25,045 nucleotides of DNA from an uncultured archaeon. Lineage in GTDB: Archaea; Asgardarchaeota; Jordiarchaeia; Jordiarchaeales; Jordiarchaeaceae. This document shows, one piece after another, positions 1 to 25,045 of this stretch. The notes beneath the pieces were generated by a model. It was given only the letters and a program-made list of their open reading frames with translations. It was not told where the DNA came from and searched no databases. How positions within the stretch are numbered: the first letter of the stretch is position 1; each line of letters starts with the position of its first letter. A program made the position numbers and the translations under genes. The DNA is taken from the NCBI GenBank assembly GCA_964510585.1, contig CAZECW010000101.1, positions 1-25,045 of the forward strand, read 5' to 3'.

Positions 1-135
1 TGCGTCTTGTTTAGCCTCTTAAGCCCAAGCCAAACCCTTCAGCTACCAACAACTATTTATATACCATACTTTCAAATAAATTTTCTGGCGATTCATCCCC
101 ACGACTAAAGTCGGGGGCTTTCTCGCCAAGGTTTT
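1..135 (-). mobile_element. Non-autonomous IS200/IS605-family mini-element (MITE/PATE-like), copy 1: left end and promoter, truncated by the window edge
   Basis: The minus strand reads TTAC|AAAACCTTGGCGAG-AAAG-CCCCCGACT-TT-AGTCG-T-GGGG. This gives a TTAC target (139-136), an AAAG guide at +15..+18 (121-118) and an imperfect hairpin (97-117) with one bulged T, matching IS608 left-end rules. Positions 1-124 align to 24919-25045 with 6 substitutions and 3 single-base indels. Confidence 0.85.
55..63 (-). promoter_or_regulatory. Archaeal TATA box inside the mini-element, pointing toward its right end
   Basis: The minus strand reads TTGAAAGTATGG-TATATAAAT-AG, with a purine-rich stretch upstream. 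The equivalent site in copy 2 (24974-24982) is TATGTAAAT. Confidence 0.55.
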
Positions 136-139
136 GTAA
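136..139 (-). other. TTAC target tetranucleotide flanking the element left end
   Basis: GTAA on the + strand is TTAC on the minus strand (TTTAC with base 140). It lies 15 nt from the AAAG guide, the pairing established for IS608. Confidence 0.75.
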
Positions 140-482
140 AGTTTCCAGATTTCTCCTTGGAGGAGAGGGTTATATGGCTCTCTTTTCGATTTAGAAGCTC
201 AAAGATGAGGCCTGGAATCATAATTCTAAACTCTTCTCTAGATTAAGAGAGGGAGGCTGTAAAGAATTAAAAATGTTTTACAGTAATTCTTATTTCTTTG
301 AAATTTCGAGTATTTTAAGTGTGCCTGTCTCTCTAACTGGCAGAACTTAAGTGAAAATATAAAAATATATTAAAATAAGTAAGGATAACATGTAAAAAGT
401 AGTTACTTAAAATTTTGCAGATATATTTTAAAGTTAAGTGTTTAATTTTCAGCCTACGAACAACTGTTCCGAGTAAAAGCTT

Positions 483-1991
483 ATGTTTAATCTGGAAAGT
501 GTATCAGGGTCACTTATTCCAAAATGGGCGGAGTACTTTCTTCAACCGCCCCTCTCAGCTCAGATAATCTTTACTGTAATTCTTTTAGTTACATTCATTT
601 TGATTGCAACTAGACGTCTTCACGGAACTGTTGCAGCACTGGGGGGAGCTGTGGTCGCATTGATTTTTGGGGTTTATTTCTCCAAAGTTTATTACTGGGT
701 TCCCTATTTTACATTCTATGTTTCGGGAGGCCTTGTAAGCAGAGAACTACTTTTTTCAGCCAGCGATGTCTATAAAGAATTCATAGATTGGTCCACTCTG
801 CTTATCATTATTTCTGTGGTTATTATTACTACGGTTGCCAGCCGCTCAGGGCTATTCGAGTACATTATACTGAGGGTGGTGAAGTTTAGCGCAGGAGACA
901 TAAGAAAACTCTTCCTCAGCATATGGTTTTTAGCGTTCCTTCTAACTATGTTGCTAAGCGGTGACCCAACAGCAATCATGACTATCCCCCTAATATTGTT
1001 AATATGTAAGGTATTGGACTTGAATCCTACACCCTATTTATTTGGCACTGTCTTTGTGATTAATGTGGCTGCTGCTTCCACTCTTGTTGCTAGTTTCATA
1101 AATATTCTGGTTTCTGGTCATTACAATTCTGATCCGTCGCGTTGGCTATCCTATCCTACATTTATGGTTTTAGGTTTGCCCGTCTCTCTGCTCTGCACGG
1201 GTATAGTAATATTGTTTATATTCCGCCGTTATGGAAAAGCCTTCAGTGTACCGCAAGAAAAAGTGGAATATTGGGAGTTGAGAGCGGAGTTGCTATCCTT
1301 GGACGCGAAAGTCCTTATAGCAAATCCAAAAATGTTTCGAAAGCTGAGCGCACTTCTGACGGCGGCAGTAATGGGTTTTATAGTTGCGGGATTGTTACAC
1401 GTTCCATTTTACGTGGTTTCTCTGTTTTTTGCCTTTGCCTTTATCTTGGTGAGCGGAGTTGATCCTGTTAAAACCTTTAAAGAAGTGGATTGGAGCCTGG
1501 TGTTCTTCTTCATAGGAGTATTCATAATTGTGGGTGGGGTGCACAGCACCAAGGTCTTGGAGAGTCTTGGAAGTAGTCTTGGTAGCCTGACTACTGGCAA
1601 TGTTCTAGGTACAGTCAGCCTTGTGACATTATTTTGTGGTTTATTATCAGGAGTGATGGACAACATTTCTGTAACTACAGCACTATTATACGTCACACCC
1701 AGCCTATCTGCATCCGCCCTAATAAATCAAAACCTCGTAATATGGTCACTAATATTTGGGTCTAATATGGGGAATAATCTAACTCCTATAGGAAGCTTAC
1801 CAAATCTCCTAGCAATCACAAGCTTAGAGAAGGAGAAGATTAAAGTTACATGGTTTGACTTTATGAAACAAGGAGCGCCCATAGTAATTATGTGCCTCTT
1901 TGCTGCGATACTGTCGCTAATTTTAATTGGGCATCTTCTCGGTTGGGGAATAGACATCACCAGTCTCTTCTCCTACCTATACTCACGGTAA
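483..1991 (+). CDS. ArsB/NhaD (IT superfamily, SLC13/P-protein-like) permease, paralog 1
   Basis: 502 aa with about 12-13 hydrophobic segments. Motifs: IDWSTL, SGLFEYI, VDWSLVFFFIGVFIIVGG, SGVMDNI, GNNLTPIGSLPN. Confidence 0.9.
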   Translation: MFNLESVSGSLIPKWAEYFLQPPLSAQIIFTVILLVTFILIATRRLHGTVAALGGAVVALIFGVYFSKVYYWVPYFTFYVSGGLVSRELLFSASDVYKEFIDWSTLLIIISVVIITTVASRSGLFEYIILRVVKFSAGDIRKLFLSIWFLAFLLTMLLSGDPTAIMTIPLILLICKVLDLNPTPYLFGTVFVINVAAASTLVASFINILVSGHYNSDPSRWLSYPTFMVLGLPVSLLCTGIVILFIFRRYGKAFSVPQEKVEYWELRAELLSLDAKVLIANPKMFRKLSALLTAAVMGFIVAGLLHVPFYVVSLFFAFAFILVSGVDPVKTFKEVDWSLVFFFIGVFIIVGGVHSTKVLESLGSSLGSLTTGNVLGTVSLVTLFCGLLSGVMDNISVTTALLYVTPSLSASALINQNLVIWSLIFGSNMGNNLTPIGSLPNLLAITSLEKEKIKVTWFDFMKQGAPIVIMCLFAAILSLILIGHLLGWGIDITSLFSYLYSR

Positions 1992-2322: not shown

Positions 2323-3828
2323 ATGTTTGGTTTAAAGGAAGCTATGGGTGCACTAATTCCCGATTGGGCAAATTATATACTGAAGCTGCAACTTTTTCCT
2401 GCTCAAATAGTTTTTACAGTTATAGTTATTGTTGCGTTTGGGCTGATAGCAACCGGGCGTCTCAATAGGACAATGGCGGCTTTGGGGGGAGCGGTGGCTA
2501 CACTTGTTGCCGGATATTATTTTTCCTTTGTTTATTCTTGGGTTCCCTTTTTCAAGTGGTTTGTGTCGGGGGGACTTGTTTCATCGGAGTTACTGTTCTC
2601 CTTTGAAGACGTTTATAAAGAATTTATTAGCTGGTCTACTCTGCTCATCGTTATTTCTATTGTTATTATTACTACGGCTGCCAGTCGCTCGGGACTCTTT
2701 GAGTACATCATACTCAGAGTGGTGAAGTTTAGCAAAGGAGACATAAGAAAACTATTCCTCCATCTGTGCATATTATCATTTGCTTTAACTATGATTTTGG
2801 GAAATAACCCCACCTTGATTATAATGAGTACATTAATTTTCATGATTGCCAGAATTCTTGACCTAAATCCCGTTCCATATATACTCGGAATTCTGTTTGT
2901 AATTAATGCAGCCAGCACATCAACAGTTATTGGTAGTTTCGTAAACTTGCTAATTTCAGGTCACTATAATTTGGATCCCACGCGTTATCTCTCCTATACC
3001 AATTTTCTCCTGTTAGGATTGCCCTTCGGAGTAATAAGTGCACTGATTACCTTGTTCTTCTTGTTTCACAACTATAAAGAGTCCTTCCAAGTGCCTGAGG
3101 ACAGAGAAGAATTCTTTGAGATAAGATCCAGACTGCTCAGCCTTGATGAACATAAATTGATGAGGGATCCAAAATTGTTTCAGCGAATAAGTATTCTGCT
3201 CGTAGCTACCATTTTGGTATTTGTTGTGGCGGGATTCCTCGGCGTACCCTTCTATGTAGTAGCATTATTGTTCGCTTTTCTTTTTCTGATTATTAGTGGG
3301 GAAAGCCCAGAGAAAACTTTGCGTGAGGTAAACTGGAGTCTCATATTCTTCTTTATAGGAATATTCATCATGGTAGGTGGGCTTAACAGTACGGGAATTT
3401 TGGAGAACTTGGGAAGCAGTCTTGGAAAACTTACAGTCGCCAACGTCCCATTGACAGCCACCCTCGTAACAATGCTAAGCAGCACGCTATCCGGAGTGCT
3501 TTACAACATTTCCGTAACATCAGCACTATTATTCGTAACACCAAGCTTATCCTCGTCTGCCCTAATAAACGAAAACCTCGTGATATGGTCACTCATATAT
3601 GGAGCAAATATTGCAGCTAGCCTAACCCCCATCGGGGGACTCCCCAGCCTAATTGCAGTAACATCACTAGAGAAAGAGGGGTACCCTATATCCTGGATCA
3701 AATTTATAAAAATTGGAGCACCTATCACACTGGTAAGTGTGGTTGCAGGCATATTGCTGCTCATAGGCTATTCTCGCATCCTAGGCTGGGGAATAGATCT
3801 ATCCAATCTATTAGCCACGCCATATTAA
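2323..3828 (+). CDS. ArsB/NhaD (IT superfamily) permease, paralog 2 (tandem duplicate)
   Basis: 501 aa, colinear with paralog 1 along its whole length. Bases 2701-2760 match 858-917 at 54/60. Signature motifs are altered (SGVLYNI, AASLTPIGGLPS). Confidence 0.9.
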   Translation: MFGLKEAMGALIPDWANYILKLQLFPAQIVFTVIVIVAFGLIATGRLNRTMAALGGAVATLVAGYYFSFVYSWVPFFKWFVSGGLVSSELLFSFEDVYKEFISWSTLLIVISIVIITTAASRSGLFEYIILRVVKFSKGDIRKLFLHLCILSFALTMILGNNPTLIIMSTLIFMIARILDLNPVPYILGILFVINAASTSTVIGSFVNLLISGHYNLDPTRYLSYTNFLLLGLPFGVISALITLFFLFHNYKESFQVPEDREEFFEIRSRLLSLDEHKLMRDPKLFQRISILLVATILVFVVAGFLGVPFYVVALLFAFLFLIISGESPEKTLREVNWSLIFFFIGIFIMVGGLNSTGILENLGSSLGKLTVANVPLTATLVTMLSSTLSGVLYNISVTSALLFVTPSLSSSALINENLVIWSLIYGANIAASLTPIGGLPSLIAVTSLEKEGYPISWIKFIKIGAPITLVSVVAGILLLIGYSRILGWGIDLSNLLATPY

Positions 3829-23969: not shown

Positions 23970-24719
23970 GTGAAAACTGAGGAAAGCTTTCCCTGTTTTG
24001 AAGTTGAGGGACAAAAGATTCCCAGAATACTTCTGGGGAGCTCCCCCTTCCTAGGCGCAGGCCAATTTGGCGTAAAGGCTTACCAGTACTATAAGAAATT
24101 CTTTGAGAACCCTGAAAATATTACGGAGCTAGTAATAGAGTCCATAAAGCTTGGAGTGAGGGGTATCCAGCTCGTGGCGTATAGCGAAATTGCCCGAGCA
24201 GTAAAACAGGCACAAGTTGAAACTGGGGTGGAATTAACAGTTGTGGGCAGCTTGCCCTTTGATAGACCAGAAGAAGGACTAGATTGCCTGTGTGATTTAA
24301 ATACTAAAGCGGTTTTACTCCATGGGGAGGAAACGGATAGGCTTAACCTTAAGGTGTTAGATTCTTGGTTCAAAAGAATCAGAAAGGCGGGTTTCGTTCC
24401 GGGCGTTGCCACCCACAAACCGGACCTCACTCTACCTGTGATCCTAAAAAGTGAATTAGATTTTTCACTGGTATTAGTACCCTTCAATGCGGCCGGCTTC
24501 CTCATGGGAAAAAAAGAAACGGTTTACAATATAGTTTCAGAATGCGACAAATCATACATAGCTATGAAGCCCTTAGCCGCAGGACGCCTCAAACCCAAAG
24601 AGGCATTGGAATTCGTCTTTTCCTGTAGGGGTATAAAGTCTGCGGCGGTAGGCATAGCCACGCCAGAGGAAGCCAGGGAAACATTCTCCATAGCCAAAGA
24701 TATCCTCAAAAAAAATTAA
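23970..24719 (+). CDS. Aldo/keto reductase-like TIM-barrel protein (archaeal subfamily)
   Basis: Motifs IPRILLGSSPF, LGVRGIQ, LLHG, PGVATH, LVPFN..G and IAMKPLAAGRL. GTG start. Confidence 0.75.
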   Translation: MKTEESFPCFEVEGQKIPRILLGSSPFLGAGQFGVKAYQYYKKFFENPENITELVIESIKLGVRGIQLVAYSEIARAVKQAQVETGVELTVVGSLPFDRPEEGLDCLCDLNTKAVLLHGEETDRLNLKVLDSWFKRIRKAGFVPGVATHKPDLTLPVILKSELDFSLVLVPFNAAGFLMGKKETVYNIVSECDKSYIAMKPLAAGRLKPKEALEFVFSCRGIKSAAVGIATPEEARETFSIAKDILKKN

Positions 24720-24777
24720 CGTTAAATTTACGCTTGATTCTTATTTTCTTTAGGCTTTTCTTCTTTTATTTTTTGGA

Positions 24778-24955
24778 TTGACACTCTCCGCGACTAAAGT
24801 CGGGAGATTCTTGCTTCTGGCTCATCGGGAGCCTTCGAAGCAATGGGTGTGCCACCACCCAGTTAACACGCCCTTCCCTCAAAGGAAACGGCGTCTATGT
24901 TGGCACCCTCATGGGGGCTGAGTCTTGTTTAGCCCCTTAAAGCCCAAGCCAAACC
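24778..24955 (-). ncRNA. Predicted TnpB-type omegaRNA (reRNA) scaffold inside the mini-element; 5' end estimated from TATA spacing
   Basis: Consecutive stems at 24914-19/24931-36, 24868-77/24884-94, 24844-49/24856-61, 24811-17/24837-43 (with 24819-23/24829-33) and the right-end hairpin. A 5-bp pseudoknot can form between 24901-05 and loop 24850-54. The RNA ends at the transposon right end, as TnpB omegaRNAs do. Confidence 0.65.
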
Positions 24956-25045
24956 CTTCAGCTACCAACAACTATTTACATACCCTACTTTCAAATAAAC
25001 TTTTTTGGCGATTCATCCCCACGACTTGAAGTCGGGGGCTTTCTC
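24778..25045 (-). mobile_element. Non-autonomous IS200/IS605-family mini-element, copy 2 (complete right end; last ~11 nt of left end beyond the window; ~279 bp predicted)
   Basis: The right end on minus reads GAAT-CTCCCGACT-TT-AGTCG-C-GGAG-AGTG-TCAA, the IS608-type guide GAAT and cleavage site TCAA (24781-24778). The left-end hairpin CCCC-A-CGACT-TGA-AGTCG-GGGG followed by CTTT (AAAG on minus) is at the window end. There is no coding capacity. Confidence 0.88.

What the first reader, a model, noticed from the sequence alone, without database searches (positions are those of the whole stretch)
97..140. Element ends spell out the IS608 guide/cleavage code, predicting the TAM and guide
Seen: the left end has TTAC then AAAG at +15..+18 and a hairpin with a bulged T. 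The right end has GAAT, a bulged hairpin and TCAA. Established: IS608 uses exactly AAAG/TTAC and GAAT/TCAA, and TnpB TAMs match the TnpA target site. Inference: the cognate TnpB TAM is 5'-(T)TTAC, and the copy 2 guide is UCCAAAAAAUAAAAGAAGAA (reverse complement of 24758-24777). That guide would target the empty insertion site. I saw no TTAC-adjacent match in this window, but the search was by eye only.
Basis: partly seen in the sequence, partly recalled or inferred. Interest (0 to 1): 0.7.

Follow-up and report, generated by a model that had tools for sequence, protein, structure and literature searches.

The report
IS608-type ends of gene-less mini-transposon
Both ends of this contig are broken copies of a roughly 280-base, protein-free jumping element present about 85-100 times in the genome; its ends carry the same four-letter cut-and-guide signals as the well-studied Helicobacter element IS608, so it is a clear but ordinary new example of a known kind.

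Summary
On the minus strand, window 139-136 is TTAC, 121-118 is AAAG (+15..+18) and 117-97 is a hairpin with a bulged T. Further along, 24810-24807 is GAAT, 24806-24786 is a hairpin with a bulged C, and 24781-24778 is TCAA.

The window is a whole contig that breaks at both ends inside copies of a 275-282 nt gene-less IS200/IS605 element (a PATE). Genome-wide, 98 of 103 left ends sit directly 3' of TTAC, against a background TTAC frequency of 0.35%. All 76 right ends finish in TCAA, and no right flank repeats TTAC, so there is no target duplication.

Three insertion sites have exact empty alleles reading TTAC|right flank. One of them is this window's copy 1. Another lies in the same assembly as TTAC plus a 20/20 guide match. 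For copy 2, relatives lack the element but have diverged at the site.

Two intact IS608-like tnpA genes share the element's left end. The element's right ~135 nt is homologous to the 3' end of tnpB plus the right end, which is the omega-RNA scaffold region.

The TAM (T)TTAC and the guide UCCAAAAAAUAAAAGAAGAA follow from the established rule but remain untested. The family's TnpB has Gly at the RuvC-II Glu position. This scan already reported the same element on at least seven other pieces of this genome.

The parts
136..139 (-). TTAC: target and left cleavage site (CL) of copy 1. It is flanking DNA, not part of the element. The T at 140 is the weakly preferred -5 base.
   Evidence: 98/103 copies. 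The empty allele in relative G001 keeps TTAC.
1..135 (-). Copy 1, left half (element positions 1-135). The contig ends inside the repeat.
   Evidence: It is 100% identical to the left half of the copy at G000:C49:7133-7267.
118..121 (-). AAAG: left guide tetranucleotide (GL), directly 5' of the hairpin foot, at +15..+18 from the cleavage point.
   Evidence: Invariant in 90-92 of 92 copies. Same as IS608 GL (PMC5934647).
97..117 (-). Left subterminal imperfect palindrome (IPL): 8-bp stem, TTTA loop, bulged T at 101.
   Evidence: DNA fold; conservation.
54..63 (-). TATATAAATA, a TATA-like box inside the element. It is a possible promoter for the downstream scaffold and is untested.
   Evidence: It is the least conserved stretch of the element.
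24778..25045 (-). Copy 2, element positions 12-279. Its first 11 nt and its TTAC lie at the end of G000:C150 (TTAC 36083-36086).
   Evidence: 141-nt perfect overlap with C150; synteny in G003 and G004.
24778..24927 (-). Omega-RNA-scaffold-like region. The last ~135 nt are homologous to the 3' end of tnpB plus the right end of the full-length relatives.
   Evidence: MFE -70 kcal/mol for 150 nt; 3-4 compensatory pairs.
24807..24810 (-). GAAT: right guide tetranucleotide (GR), 5' of the hairpin foot.
   Evidence: 65/65. Same as IS608 GR.
24786..24806 (-). Right subterminal imperfect palindrome (IPR): stem CTCC-CGAC / GTCG-GGAG with bulged C at 24790.
   Evidence: Compensatory CTCC/GGAG to CCCC/GGGG change in the full-length elements.
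24778..24781 (-). TCAA: right cleavage site (CR) and the last four bases of the element.
   Evidence: 76/76.
24758..24777 (-). Right flank of copy 2, the predicted guide and protospacer TCCAAAAAATAAAAGAAGAA. It lies 58 nt downstream of the stop of ORF 23970-24719.
   Evidence: No TTAC-adjacent match of 12 nt or more elsewhere in the assembly.

Best explanation
The two window ends are copies of a 275-282 nt, protein-free derivative (PATE/MITE) of an IS608-type IS200/IS605 insertion sequence, lying on the minus strand.

Transposition. A Y1 (HUH) TnpA supplied in trans by full-length relatives binds the two subterminal hairpins of the top strand. AAAG, 5' of the left hairpin, recognises TTAC. GAAT, 5' of the right hairpin, recognises TCAA. 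The element is cut 3' of TTAC and 3' of TCAA, leaves as a single-stranded circle, and re-inserts 3' of another TTAC without target duplication.
- Shown here: the signals, their invariance over about 100 copies, the TTAC target, the absence of duplication, exact empty sites, and IS608-like tnpA genes carrying the same left end.
- Inferred from IS608 biochemistry: the base-pairing and the single-strand chemistry.

Guide RNA. The right ~135-150 nt is the guide-RNA (omega-RNA) scaffold inherited from the 3' end of tnpB. A transcript running out of the right end would carry the first 16-20 nt of flank as its guide, which for copy 2 is UCCAAAAAAUAAAAGAAGAA. A TnpB made elsewhere would then recognise TTAC plus that sequence, meaning the emptied donor site, and cut it so that repair restores the element. 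This second part is inferred by homology and by the ISDra2 rule.
For: - Signals at the stated coordinates.
- Census: 98/103 left ends have TTAC, 76/76 right ends have TCAA, and 0/76 right flanks start with TTAC.
- Exact empty alleles:
  - The C184 copy, against G001 and G004, reads ...TTTTAC|(T/A)GATACC.
  - Window copy 1, against G001, reads TTAC|ATCTCC.
  - The right end at C12:8955 is matched by same-assembly contig C154:2120-2143, which is TTAC plus a 20/20 match. G001 and G004 show the same.
- tnpA genes at C169 and C7 are intact and C162 is frameshifted. Their left ends are 93-95% identical to the first ~60-65 nt of the element.
- The best solved-structure match of TnpA is the IS608 transposase (E 1.6e-28), with HUH and the catalytic Tyr aligned.
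- Right-half homology to the tnpB 3' end plus right end, with compensatory pairs.
- IS608 code and TAM rule from PMC5934647, PMC3201880 and PMC8612924.
- PATEs that encode omega-RNAs are described (PMC10055086).
Against: - No transcript evidence is available.
- The TATA-like box is the least conserved part of the element.
- Every full-length or near-full-length TnpB of this family that I could read (G000 C81 and copies in G002, G004 and G005) has Gly where the RuvC-II catalytic Glu should be. Nuclease activity therefore depends on an unverified relocated Glu.
- The C169/C8-type tnpB is broken across contigs, so its intactness is unknown.
- Right-end spacing differs from IS608. Cleavage falls 8 nt 3' of the hairpin foot, against 10 nt reported.
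- For copy 2 itself only diverged, non-TTAC empty sites were found.
Confidence: 0.85

Rival explanations
1. The ends are genuine TnpA signals, but the right half is only a relic of tnpB. No functional omega-RNA is made, so 'guide' and 'TAM' have no meaning for these copies. The element spreads purely through TnpA.
For: - No RNA run is available.
- The putative promoter is the most variable stretch.
- 11-13 of 47 predicted pairs are broken when mapped onto the full-length relatives.
- The TnpB of the family lacks the canonical RuvC-II Glu.
Against: - The right 150 nt is 95-100% conserved among copies, is strongly structured (-70 kcal/mol), and keeps compensatory changes relative to the parent.
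- TnpA needs only about 40 nt of the right end, so retaining about 135 nt of tnpB-derived sequence in a minimal element suggests selection.
- Omega-RNA-encoding PATEs are known.
Confidence: 0.25
2. The TnpB acts with these guides but as a binding-only or differently specific protein. It would be nuclease-dead, or its TAM would not be TTAC, so it would not home by cleavage at TTAC|guide.
For: The RuvC-II Glu is replaced by Gly in all readable copies. No TnpB with a TTAC TAM was found in the searchable literature.
Against: [quoted passage not shown]
- The TnpBs here remain inside mobile elements with intact ends and a zinc finger.
- The TAM equals the TnpA target in the characterised systems.
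Confidence: 0.15
3. TTAC is the first four bases of the element rather than its target. Its invariance would then say nothing about target choice or TAM.
For: TTAC is conserved in nearly all copies, as an element-internal sequence would be.
Against: Empty alleles in G001, G004 and contig C154 retain TTAC, directly abutting the right flank.
Confidence: 0.02

Closest known systems
IS608 of Helicobacter pylori (IS200/IS605 family)
   Same: - The tetranucleotide code is identical: CL TTAC / GL AAAG and CR TCAA / GR GAAT.
- Guides sit directly 5' of subterminal imperfect palindromes that carry a bulged base.
- Insertion is 3' of TTAC without duplication.
- The TnpA is about half identical to the IS608 transposase, with HUH and Tyr aligned.
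- TTAC lies 18 nt (mini-element) or 19 nt (full-length copies) from the left hairpin foot, against 19 nt in IS608.
   Different: - The host is an archaeon (Asgard according to earlier scan notes, not re-tested here).
- The window copies have no genes.
- The right-end bulge is C rather than T.
- The right cleavage point is 8 nt from the hairpin foot rather than the reported 10.
- The associated TnpB has a rearranged RuvC-II motif.
PATEs (palindrome-associated transposable elements) of IS200/IS605. Named in Haloquadratum walsbyi (PMC3119063). PATE-like elements are described in Geobacillus stearothermophilus, and PATEs in general are said to often encode omega-RNAs (PMC10055086).
   Same: - Too short to encode a transposase.
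- Palindromes near the termini and no terminal inverted repeats.
- No target duplication.
- Many copies, mobilised in trans.
- Carries the omega-RNA scaffold region.
   Different: One family of about 85-100 copies accounts for 91 of 434 contig ends in this assembly. It was not found as such in five sister species, so it is a lineage-specific burst.
ISDra2 TnpB/reRNA homing system (Karvelis et al. 2021, PMC8612924)
   Same: The logic used for the prediction is the same. The guide is the flank 3' of the right end, the TAM equals the TnpA target, and the natural target is the donor joint left by excision.
   Different: Here the target is TTAC rather than TTGAT, the scaffold sits on a gene-less element, and nothing has been tested biochemically.

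Membership tests
IS200/IS605 (IS608-type) | Subterminal imperfect palindromes instead of terminal inverted repeats | tested here: met
   Hairpins at window 117-97 and 24806-24786. They are conserved in 92 left ends and 65 right ends.
IS200/IS605 (IS608-type) | Insertion 3' of a specific short target (TTAC) with no target-site duplication and precise donor joints | tested here: met
   98/103 left ends have TTAC and 0/76 right flanks start with TTAC. Exact empty sites TTAC|flank at three loci.
IS200/IS605 (IS608-type) | Four-base guide sequences 5' of each hairpin foot, matching the cleavage sites as in IS608 (AAAG/TTAC, GAAT/TCAA) | tested here: met
   Read directly from the sequence. IS608 values from PMC5934647. 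The pairing itself was not tested.
IS200/IS605 (IS608-type) | A Y1 HUH transposase (TnpA) that can act on these ends | tested here: met
   PF01797 hits at C7, C169 and C162. Their left ends are 93-95% identical to the element's first ~60-65 nt. Best PDB match is the IS608 TnpA, with HUH and Tyr aligned. Activity was not tested.
IS200/IS605 (IS608-type) | Strand-specific single-strand excision and insertion | not testable with these tools
   Needs biochemistry or replication-strand mapping on a closed genome.
PATE (gene-less IS200/IS605 derivative) | Too short to encode a transposase; palindromes near the termini; no duplication; multiple copies | tested here: met
   275-282 nt. There are 29 full-length hits and about 84 copy-equivalents, with median identity to the consensus of 97%.
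Omega-RNA-bearing (OMEGA/TnpB) element | Right part derived from the 3' end of tnpB plus the right end | tested here: met
   The MAFFT alignment to the tnpB 3' end plus right end of C8, C45, C54 and C152 runs over about 135 nt. BLAST identity is 77-79% over the last 98 nt. The segment still encodes VNWxMAHPL.
Omega-RNA-bearing (OMEGA/TnpB) element | Conserved scaffold secondary structure | tested here: inconclusive
   Strong fold. Against the full-length relatives, of 47 pairs 22-23 are unchanged, 3-4 compensatory, 11-13 broken and 7 gapped.
Omega-RNA-bearing (OMEGA/TnpB) element | Transcription through the right end into the flank | not testable with these tools
   No RNA run is listed for this organism.
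Omega-RNA-bearing (OMEGA/TnpB) element | A cognate, catalytically competent TnpB in the genome | tested here: inconclusive
   - C81 has a 426-aa TnpB open to the element end.
- The C169/C8-type tnpB is split over contigs.
- RuvC-I Asp, RuvC-III Asp and the zinc finger are present.
- The RuvC-II Glu is Gly.
Omega-RNA-bearing (OMEGA/TnpB) element | The TAM equals the TnpA target (here TTAC) | not testable with these tools
   Inferred from ISDra2. The one natural TTAC+20/20 site found (C154) is what the model predicts but does not show cleavage.

The most novel reading that the evidence does not exclude
The roughly 100 gene-less copies would together form a large, self-renewing library of promoter-plus-scaffold cassettes. 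Each would be programmed against its own empty allele and served in trans by a few RuvC-II-rearranged TnpBs. Occupied and empty alleles coexist in the sampled hot-spring population (C154 against C12). The system could therefore act as a population-level drive, converting empty alleles after DNA exchange, in a lineage that earlier scan notes place among the Asgard archaea.
Probability: 0.15. Interest if true: 0.55.

Novelty: new member of a known kind. Interest (0 to 1): 0.28.

Why it matters
This is a clean natural replicate of the IS608 rule, with about 100 independent insertions and base-exact empty sites, in an archaeon far from Helicobacter. It shows that the same four-letter DNA code and a half-identical TnpA operate across domains.

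It gives a concrete, testable TAM (TTAC, with a weak T at -5) and about 76 natural guide sequences for a TnpB of the little-studied RuvC-II-rearranged type.

It also explains much of the fragmentation of this assembly, since 21% of contig ends lie inside the element. It warns that contigs which run through a copy may join the wrong flanks.

The principle itself is already described, both the TnpA code and guide-RNA-bearing PATEs.

Tried and rejected
- **Rfam.** A scan of the copy 2 region found no family; the best hit was a chance miRNA at E 0.5.
- **Sequencing runs.** Eight hot-spring DNA runs hold the locus, and no RNA holder is listed.
- **Laid contigs.** Contigs of four runs laid on a 10-kb locus with two copies broke at the repeats. 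They gave no ~280-nt skip joint, so no empty allele came from that route. Summed depth over the repeats was about 80-100 times the flanks.
- **Uninformative loci.** Empty-site searches at two more loci (C62 and C193 copies) failed because the relatives' contigs also break there.
- **Imprecise empty sites.** For C72 copy 2 the relatives lack the element but read TTAG. For window copy 2 they read TTTC or TTCC in a diverged spacer that also carries indels.
- **Guide search.** Of 76 right flanks searched against the assembly, only one had a TTAC-adjacent match (C12 to C154). The copy 2 guide has none; its best match is 17 nt with one mismatch behind ATAC.
- **Apparent 2-nt discrepancy.** C62 against C75 reads TTAC-AA-ATTTCGC. 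This turned out to involve a three-member paralogous repeat, not an allele.
- **Covariation across TnpA relatives.** A quick regular-expression look for guide/target covariation in 80 TnpA-related loci from other phyla found only four hairpins. One of them, from a Dehalococcoidia genome, has the same TTAC-14 nt-AAAG layout. That is too few to test the code.
- **Literature.** A search for a characterised TnpB with a TTAC TAM found none.
- **Taxonomy.** It could not be checked independently, because the genome-collection scan omits the window's own lineage.

Full report
**What is at the coordinates.** The window is an entire contig (G000:C101). Both of its ends run into copies of one repeat that lies on the minus strand.

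- Around the finding the minus strand reads T-TTAC (140; 139-136). The element then begins AAAACCTTGGCGAG (135-122), followed by AAAG (121-118, which is +15..+18) and the hairpin CCCCCGAC-TTTA-GTCG-T-GGGG (117-97).
- Folded as DNA, the hairpin gives an 8-bp stem with T101 bulged.
- At the other end, GAAT (24810-24807) directly precedes CTCCCGAC-TTTA-GTCG-C-GGAG (24806-24786, with C24790 bulged). Then come AGTG and TCAA (24781-24778).
- The next 20 nt of flank read TCCAAAAAATAAAAGAAGAA.

The only nuance is that the right-end bulge is C rather than T.

**Census.** The repeat is a 275-282 nt element with no room for a gene.
- BLAST and anchored pattern searches of the 3.78-Mb assembly find 103 left-end and 76 right-end anchors. 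There are 29 full-length hits and about 84 copy-equivalents, with median identity to the consensus of 97%.
- 91 of the 434 contig ends lie inside a copy, which is why the window breaks there.
- 98 of 103 left ends are preceded by TTAC at the expected offset. The genome-wide TTAC frequency is 0.35%, and P is about 5e-135 even after allowing ten offsets.
- The base before TTAC is T in 58 of 98 copies, against 29% expected (P 7e-10).
- All 76 right ends finish in TCAA and are followed by unrelated sequence. None of the 76 right flanks begins with TTAC, so there is no target duplication.

**Empty sites.**
- (a) The copy at C184:18081-18360 is missing in two sister species, whose flanks abut with no gap. 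G001 reads ...GACCTTTTAC|TGATACCACAACC and G004 reads ...GACCTTTTAC|AGATACCACAACC. G000 reads ...GACATTTTAC|[280 nt ... GTGTCAA]|TGATACCACAACC.
- (b) For the window's own copy 1, G001 reads (element strand) ...GGAAGCTTTAC|ATCTCCATCC. The G001 DNA on the far side matches G000:C49:7404-8005 at 92%. In G000 that DNA follows directly after the TCAA of a copy whose left half is 100% identical to window 1-139.
- (c) The flank of the right end at C12:8955 recurs in the same assembly on contig C154 as TTAC plus a 20/20 match, and stays 98% identical over 198 nt. G001 and G004 also read TTAC|ATGGATCAGGG there, and G003 reads TTAT. Synteny in G004 (A, then A', then B) indicates that C154 is the empty allele of a co-occurring strain. 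It also indicates that contig C12 joins a wrong left flank through the repeat, or that two copies flank A'.
- (d) Two further sites are empty in relatives but too diverged to be exact. These are C72 copy 2, where relatives read TTAG, and window copy 2.
- For copy 2, the left flank was identified as the end of C150 from a 141-nt perfect overlap and from synteny. The relatives read TTTC or TTCC where G000 has TTAC.

The exact allele TTAC|TCCAAAAAATAAAAG was not found.

**Who moves it.**
- The genome holds three tnpA (Y1, PF01797) genes. Those at C169 and C7 are intact and the one at C162 is frameshifted at its start. Their upstream left ends are 93-95% identical to the first ~60-65 nt of the mini-element and carry the same TTAC ... 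AAAG-hairpin layout, with TTAC 19 nt from the hairpin foot.
- Each is followed by the start of a tnpB that runs off its contig.
- Four contig ends (C8, C45, C54, C152) carry the matching tnpB 3' end plus a right end, GAAT-CCCCCGAC...GCGGGGAG-TG-TCAA.
- The best solved-structure match of this TnpA is the IS608 transposase itself (2a6m, E 1.6e-28), with the HUH motif and the catalytic tyrosine aligned.
IS608 has CL TTAC, GL AAAG, CR TCAA and GR GAAT. Its guides lie 5' of the hairpin feet, and changing GL retargets insertion (PMC5934647, PMC3201880).
- One difference is that the right cleavage point is 8 nt from the hairpin foot here, against the 10 nt reported for IS608.

**The guide and TAM inference.**
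- The right ~135 nt of the mini-element aligns to the last codons of tnpB plus the right end of the full-length copies. BLAST identity is 77-79% over the last 98 nt, and the segment still encodes VNWxMAHPL.
- The last 150 nt fold into a multi-stem structure (-70 kcal/mol).
- Mapped onto the parents, 22-23 of 47 pairs are unchanged, 3-4 are compensatory (for example ACGCC/GGCGT to GTGCC/GGCAC, and the T-A to C-G change in the right-end stem), and 11-13 are broken.
- This is the region that yields omega-RNA in characterised systems. There the guide is the flank 3' of the right end, and the TAM equals the TnpA target (ISDra2: PMC8612924).
- PATE-like gene-less elements are described in Geobacillus stearothermophilus, and PATEs are said to often encode omega-RNAs acted on in trans (PMC10055086).

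Nothing here demonstrates transcription or cleavage:
- No RNA run is listed.
- The TATA-like box is the least conserved stretch.
- No TnpB with a TTAC TAM turned up in the searchable literature.
- All readable TnpBs of this family have Gly at the RuvC-II Glu position. That places them among the 'rearranged' TnpBs, which are predicted but not shown to use a relocated Glu (PMC10691335).

**Distribution.** The 280-nt element as such was not found in five sister species. G004 has related, shorter elements that share the ends. Contigs of four hot-spring runs pile up on it at about 80-100 times flank depth. It looks like a recent burst specific to this lineage.

**Comparison and verdict.**
- The element meets every sequence-level criterion of an IS608-type IS200/IS605 end pair and of a PATE. 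Its omega-RNA status is supported by homology and partly by structure.
- The kind is already known, and earlier agents of this scan reported the same element on at least seven other pieces of this genome. I re-derived the census, the parents and the scaffold homology independently.
- The new contribution here is the base-exact empty sites, including one for this window's copy 1, plus a same-assembly TTAC+guide allele.
- The Asgard placement comes from earlier notes and was not tested here.
- I rate it a new member of a known kind. Confidence in the transposition reading is high and confidence in the TnpB reading is moderate.

Noticed in passing
G000:C81:5075-6787 (minus); L008:1318-2595 is the tnpB part: A 571-aa open frame joins a degenerate tnpA (HUH replaced by Y-I-Q) in frame to a 426-aa tnpB. 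It reads through the right-end hairpin to the last base of the element (…SRGECQ = …GAGAGTGTCAA). Its right end is 93% identical to the mini-element's last 42 nt, but its left-end hairpin is different.
   Followed up: partly
TnpB copies: G000:C81, L142 (G004), L143 and L146 (G005), L141 (G002): All have IV(V/C/L)-G-(N/D/R)-L where the RuvC-II catalytic Glu is expected. The Gly aligns to the Glu of a solved TnpB (9nzp). This matches the 'RuvC-II rearranged' TnpB branches of Altae-Tran et al. 2023.
   Followed up: partly
All right flanks genome-wide; window 24777: The first base after the insertion point is A in 43 of 76 copies and G in only 1 of 76 (P 4e-7). This is a target or guide-position-1 preference beyond TTAC.
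   Followed up: no
G000:C154:1-2321 against G000:C12:8677-9153; G000:C49:7130-7403 against window 1-139: Contigs that run through a copy appear to pair left and right flanks that are not neighbours in sister genomes. Either the assembly is chimeric across the repeat or two copies bracket a segment. C154 looks like the empty allele of a second strain (98% identity).
   Followed up: partly
G000:C58:28226-28557 and G000:C107:6907-7233: A second, longer mini-element subfamily (326-332 nt). It has the same TTAC, AAAG-hairpin and TCAA signals but a different linker (TTAC|AAAGACGAGTGC...).
   Followed up: no
L011:3938-3999 (G000:C184:13937-13998): Contigs of three hot-spring runs skip 60 nt here and carry TCC or TCT instead. 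This is an unrelated indel polymorphism.
   Followed up: no
window 483-1991 and 2323-3828: Two tandem paralogous CitMHS/ArsB-family transporter genes lie just inside copy 1's flank. Copy 1's TTAC is about 345 nt upstream of the first.
   Followed up: no
L057 (Dehalococcoidia bacterium, JALPXT010000037.1): A bacterial TnpA 73% identical to this archaeon's has the same left-end layout (TTTAC, then 14 nt, then AAAG, then CCCCCGACT...). This hints at recent cross-domain transfer of the element family.
   Followed up: no
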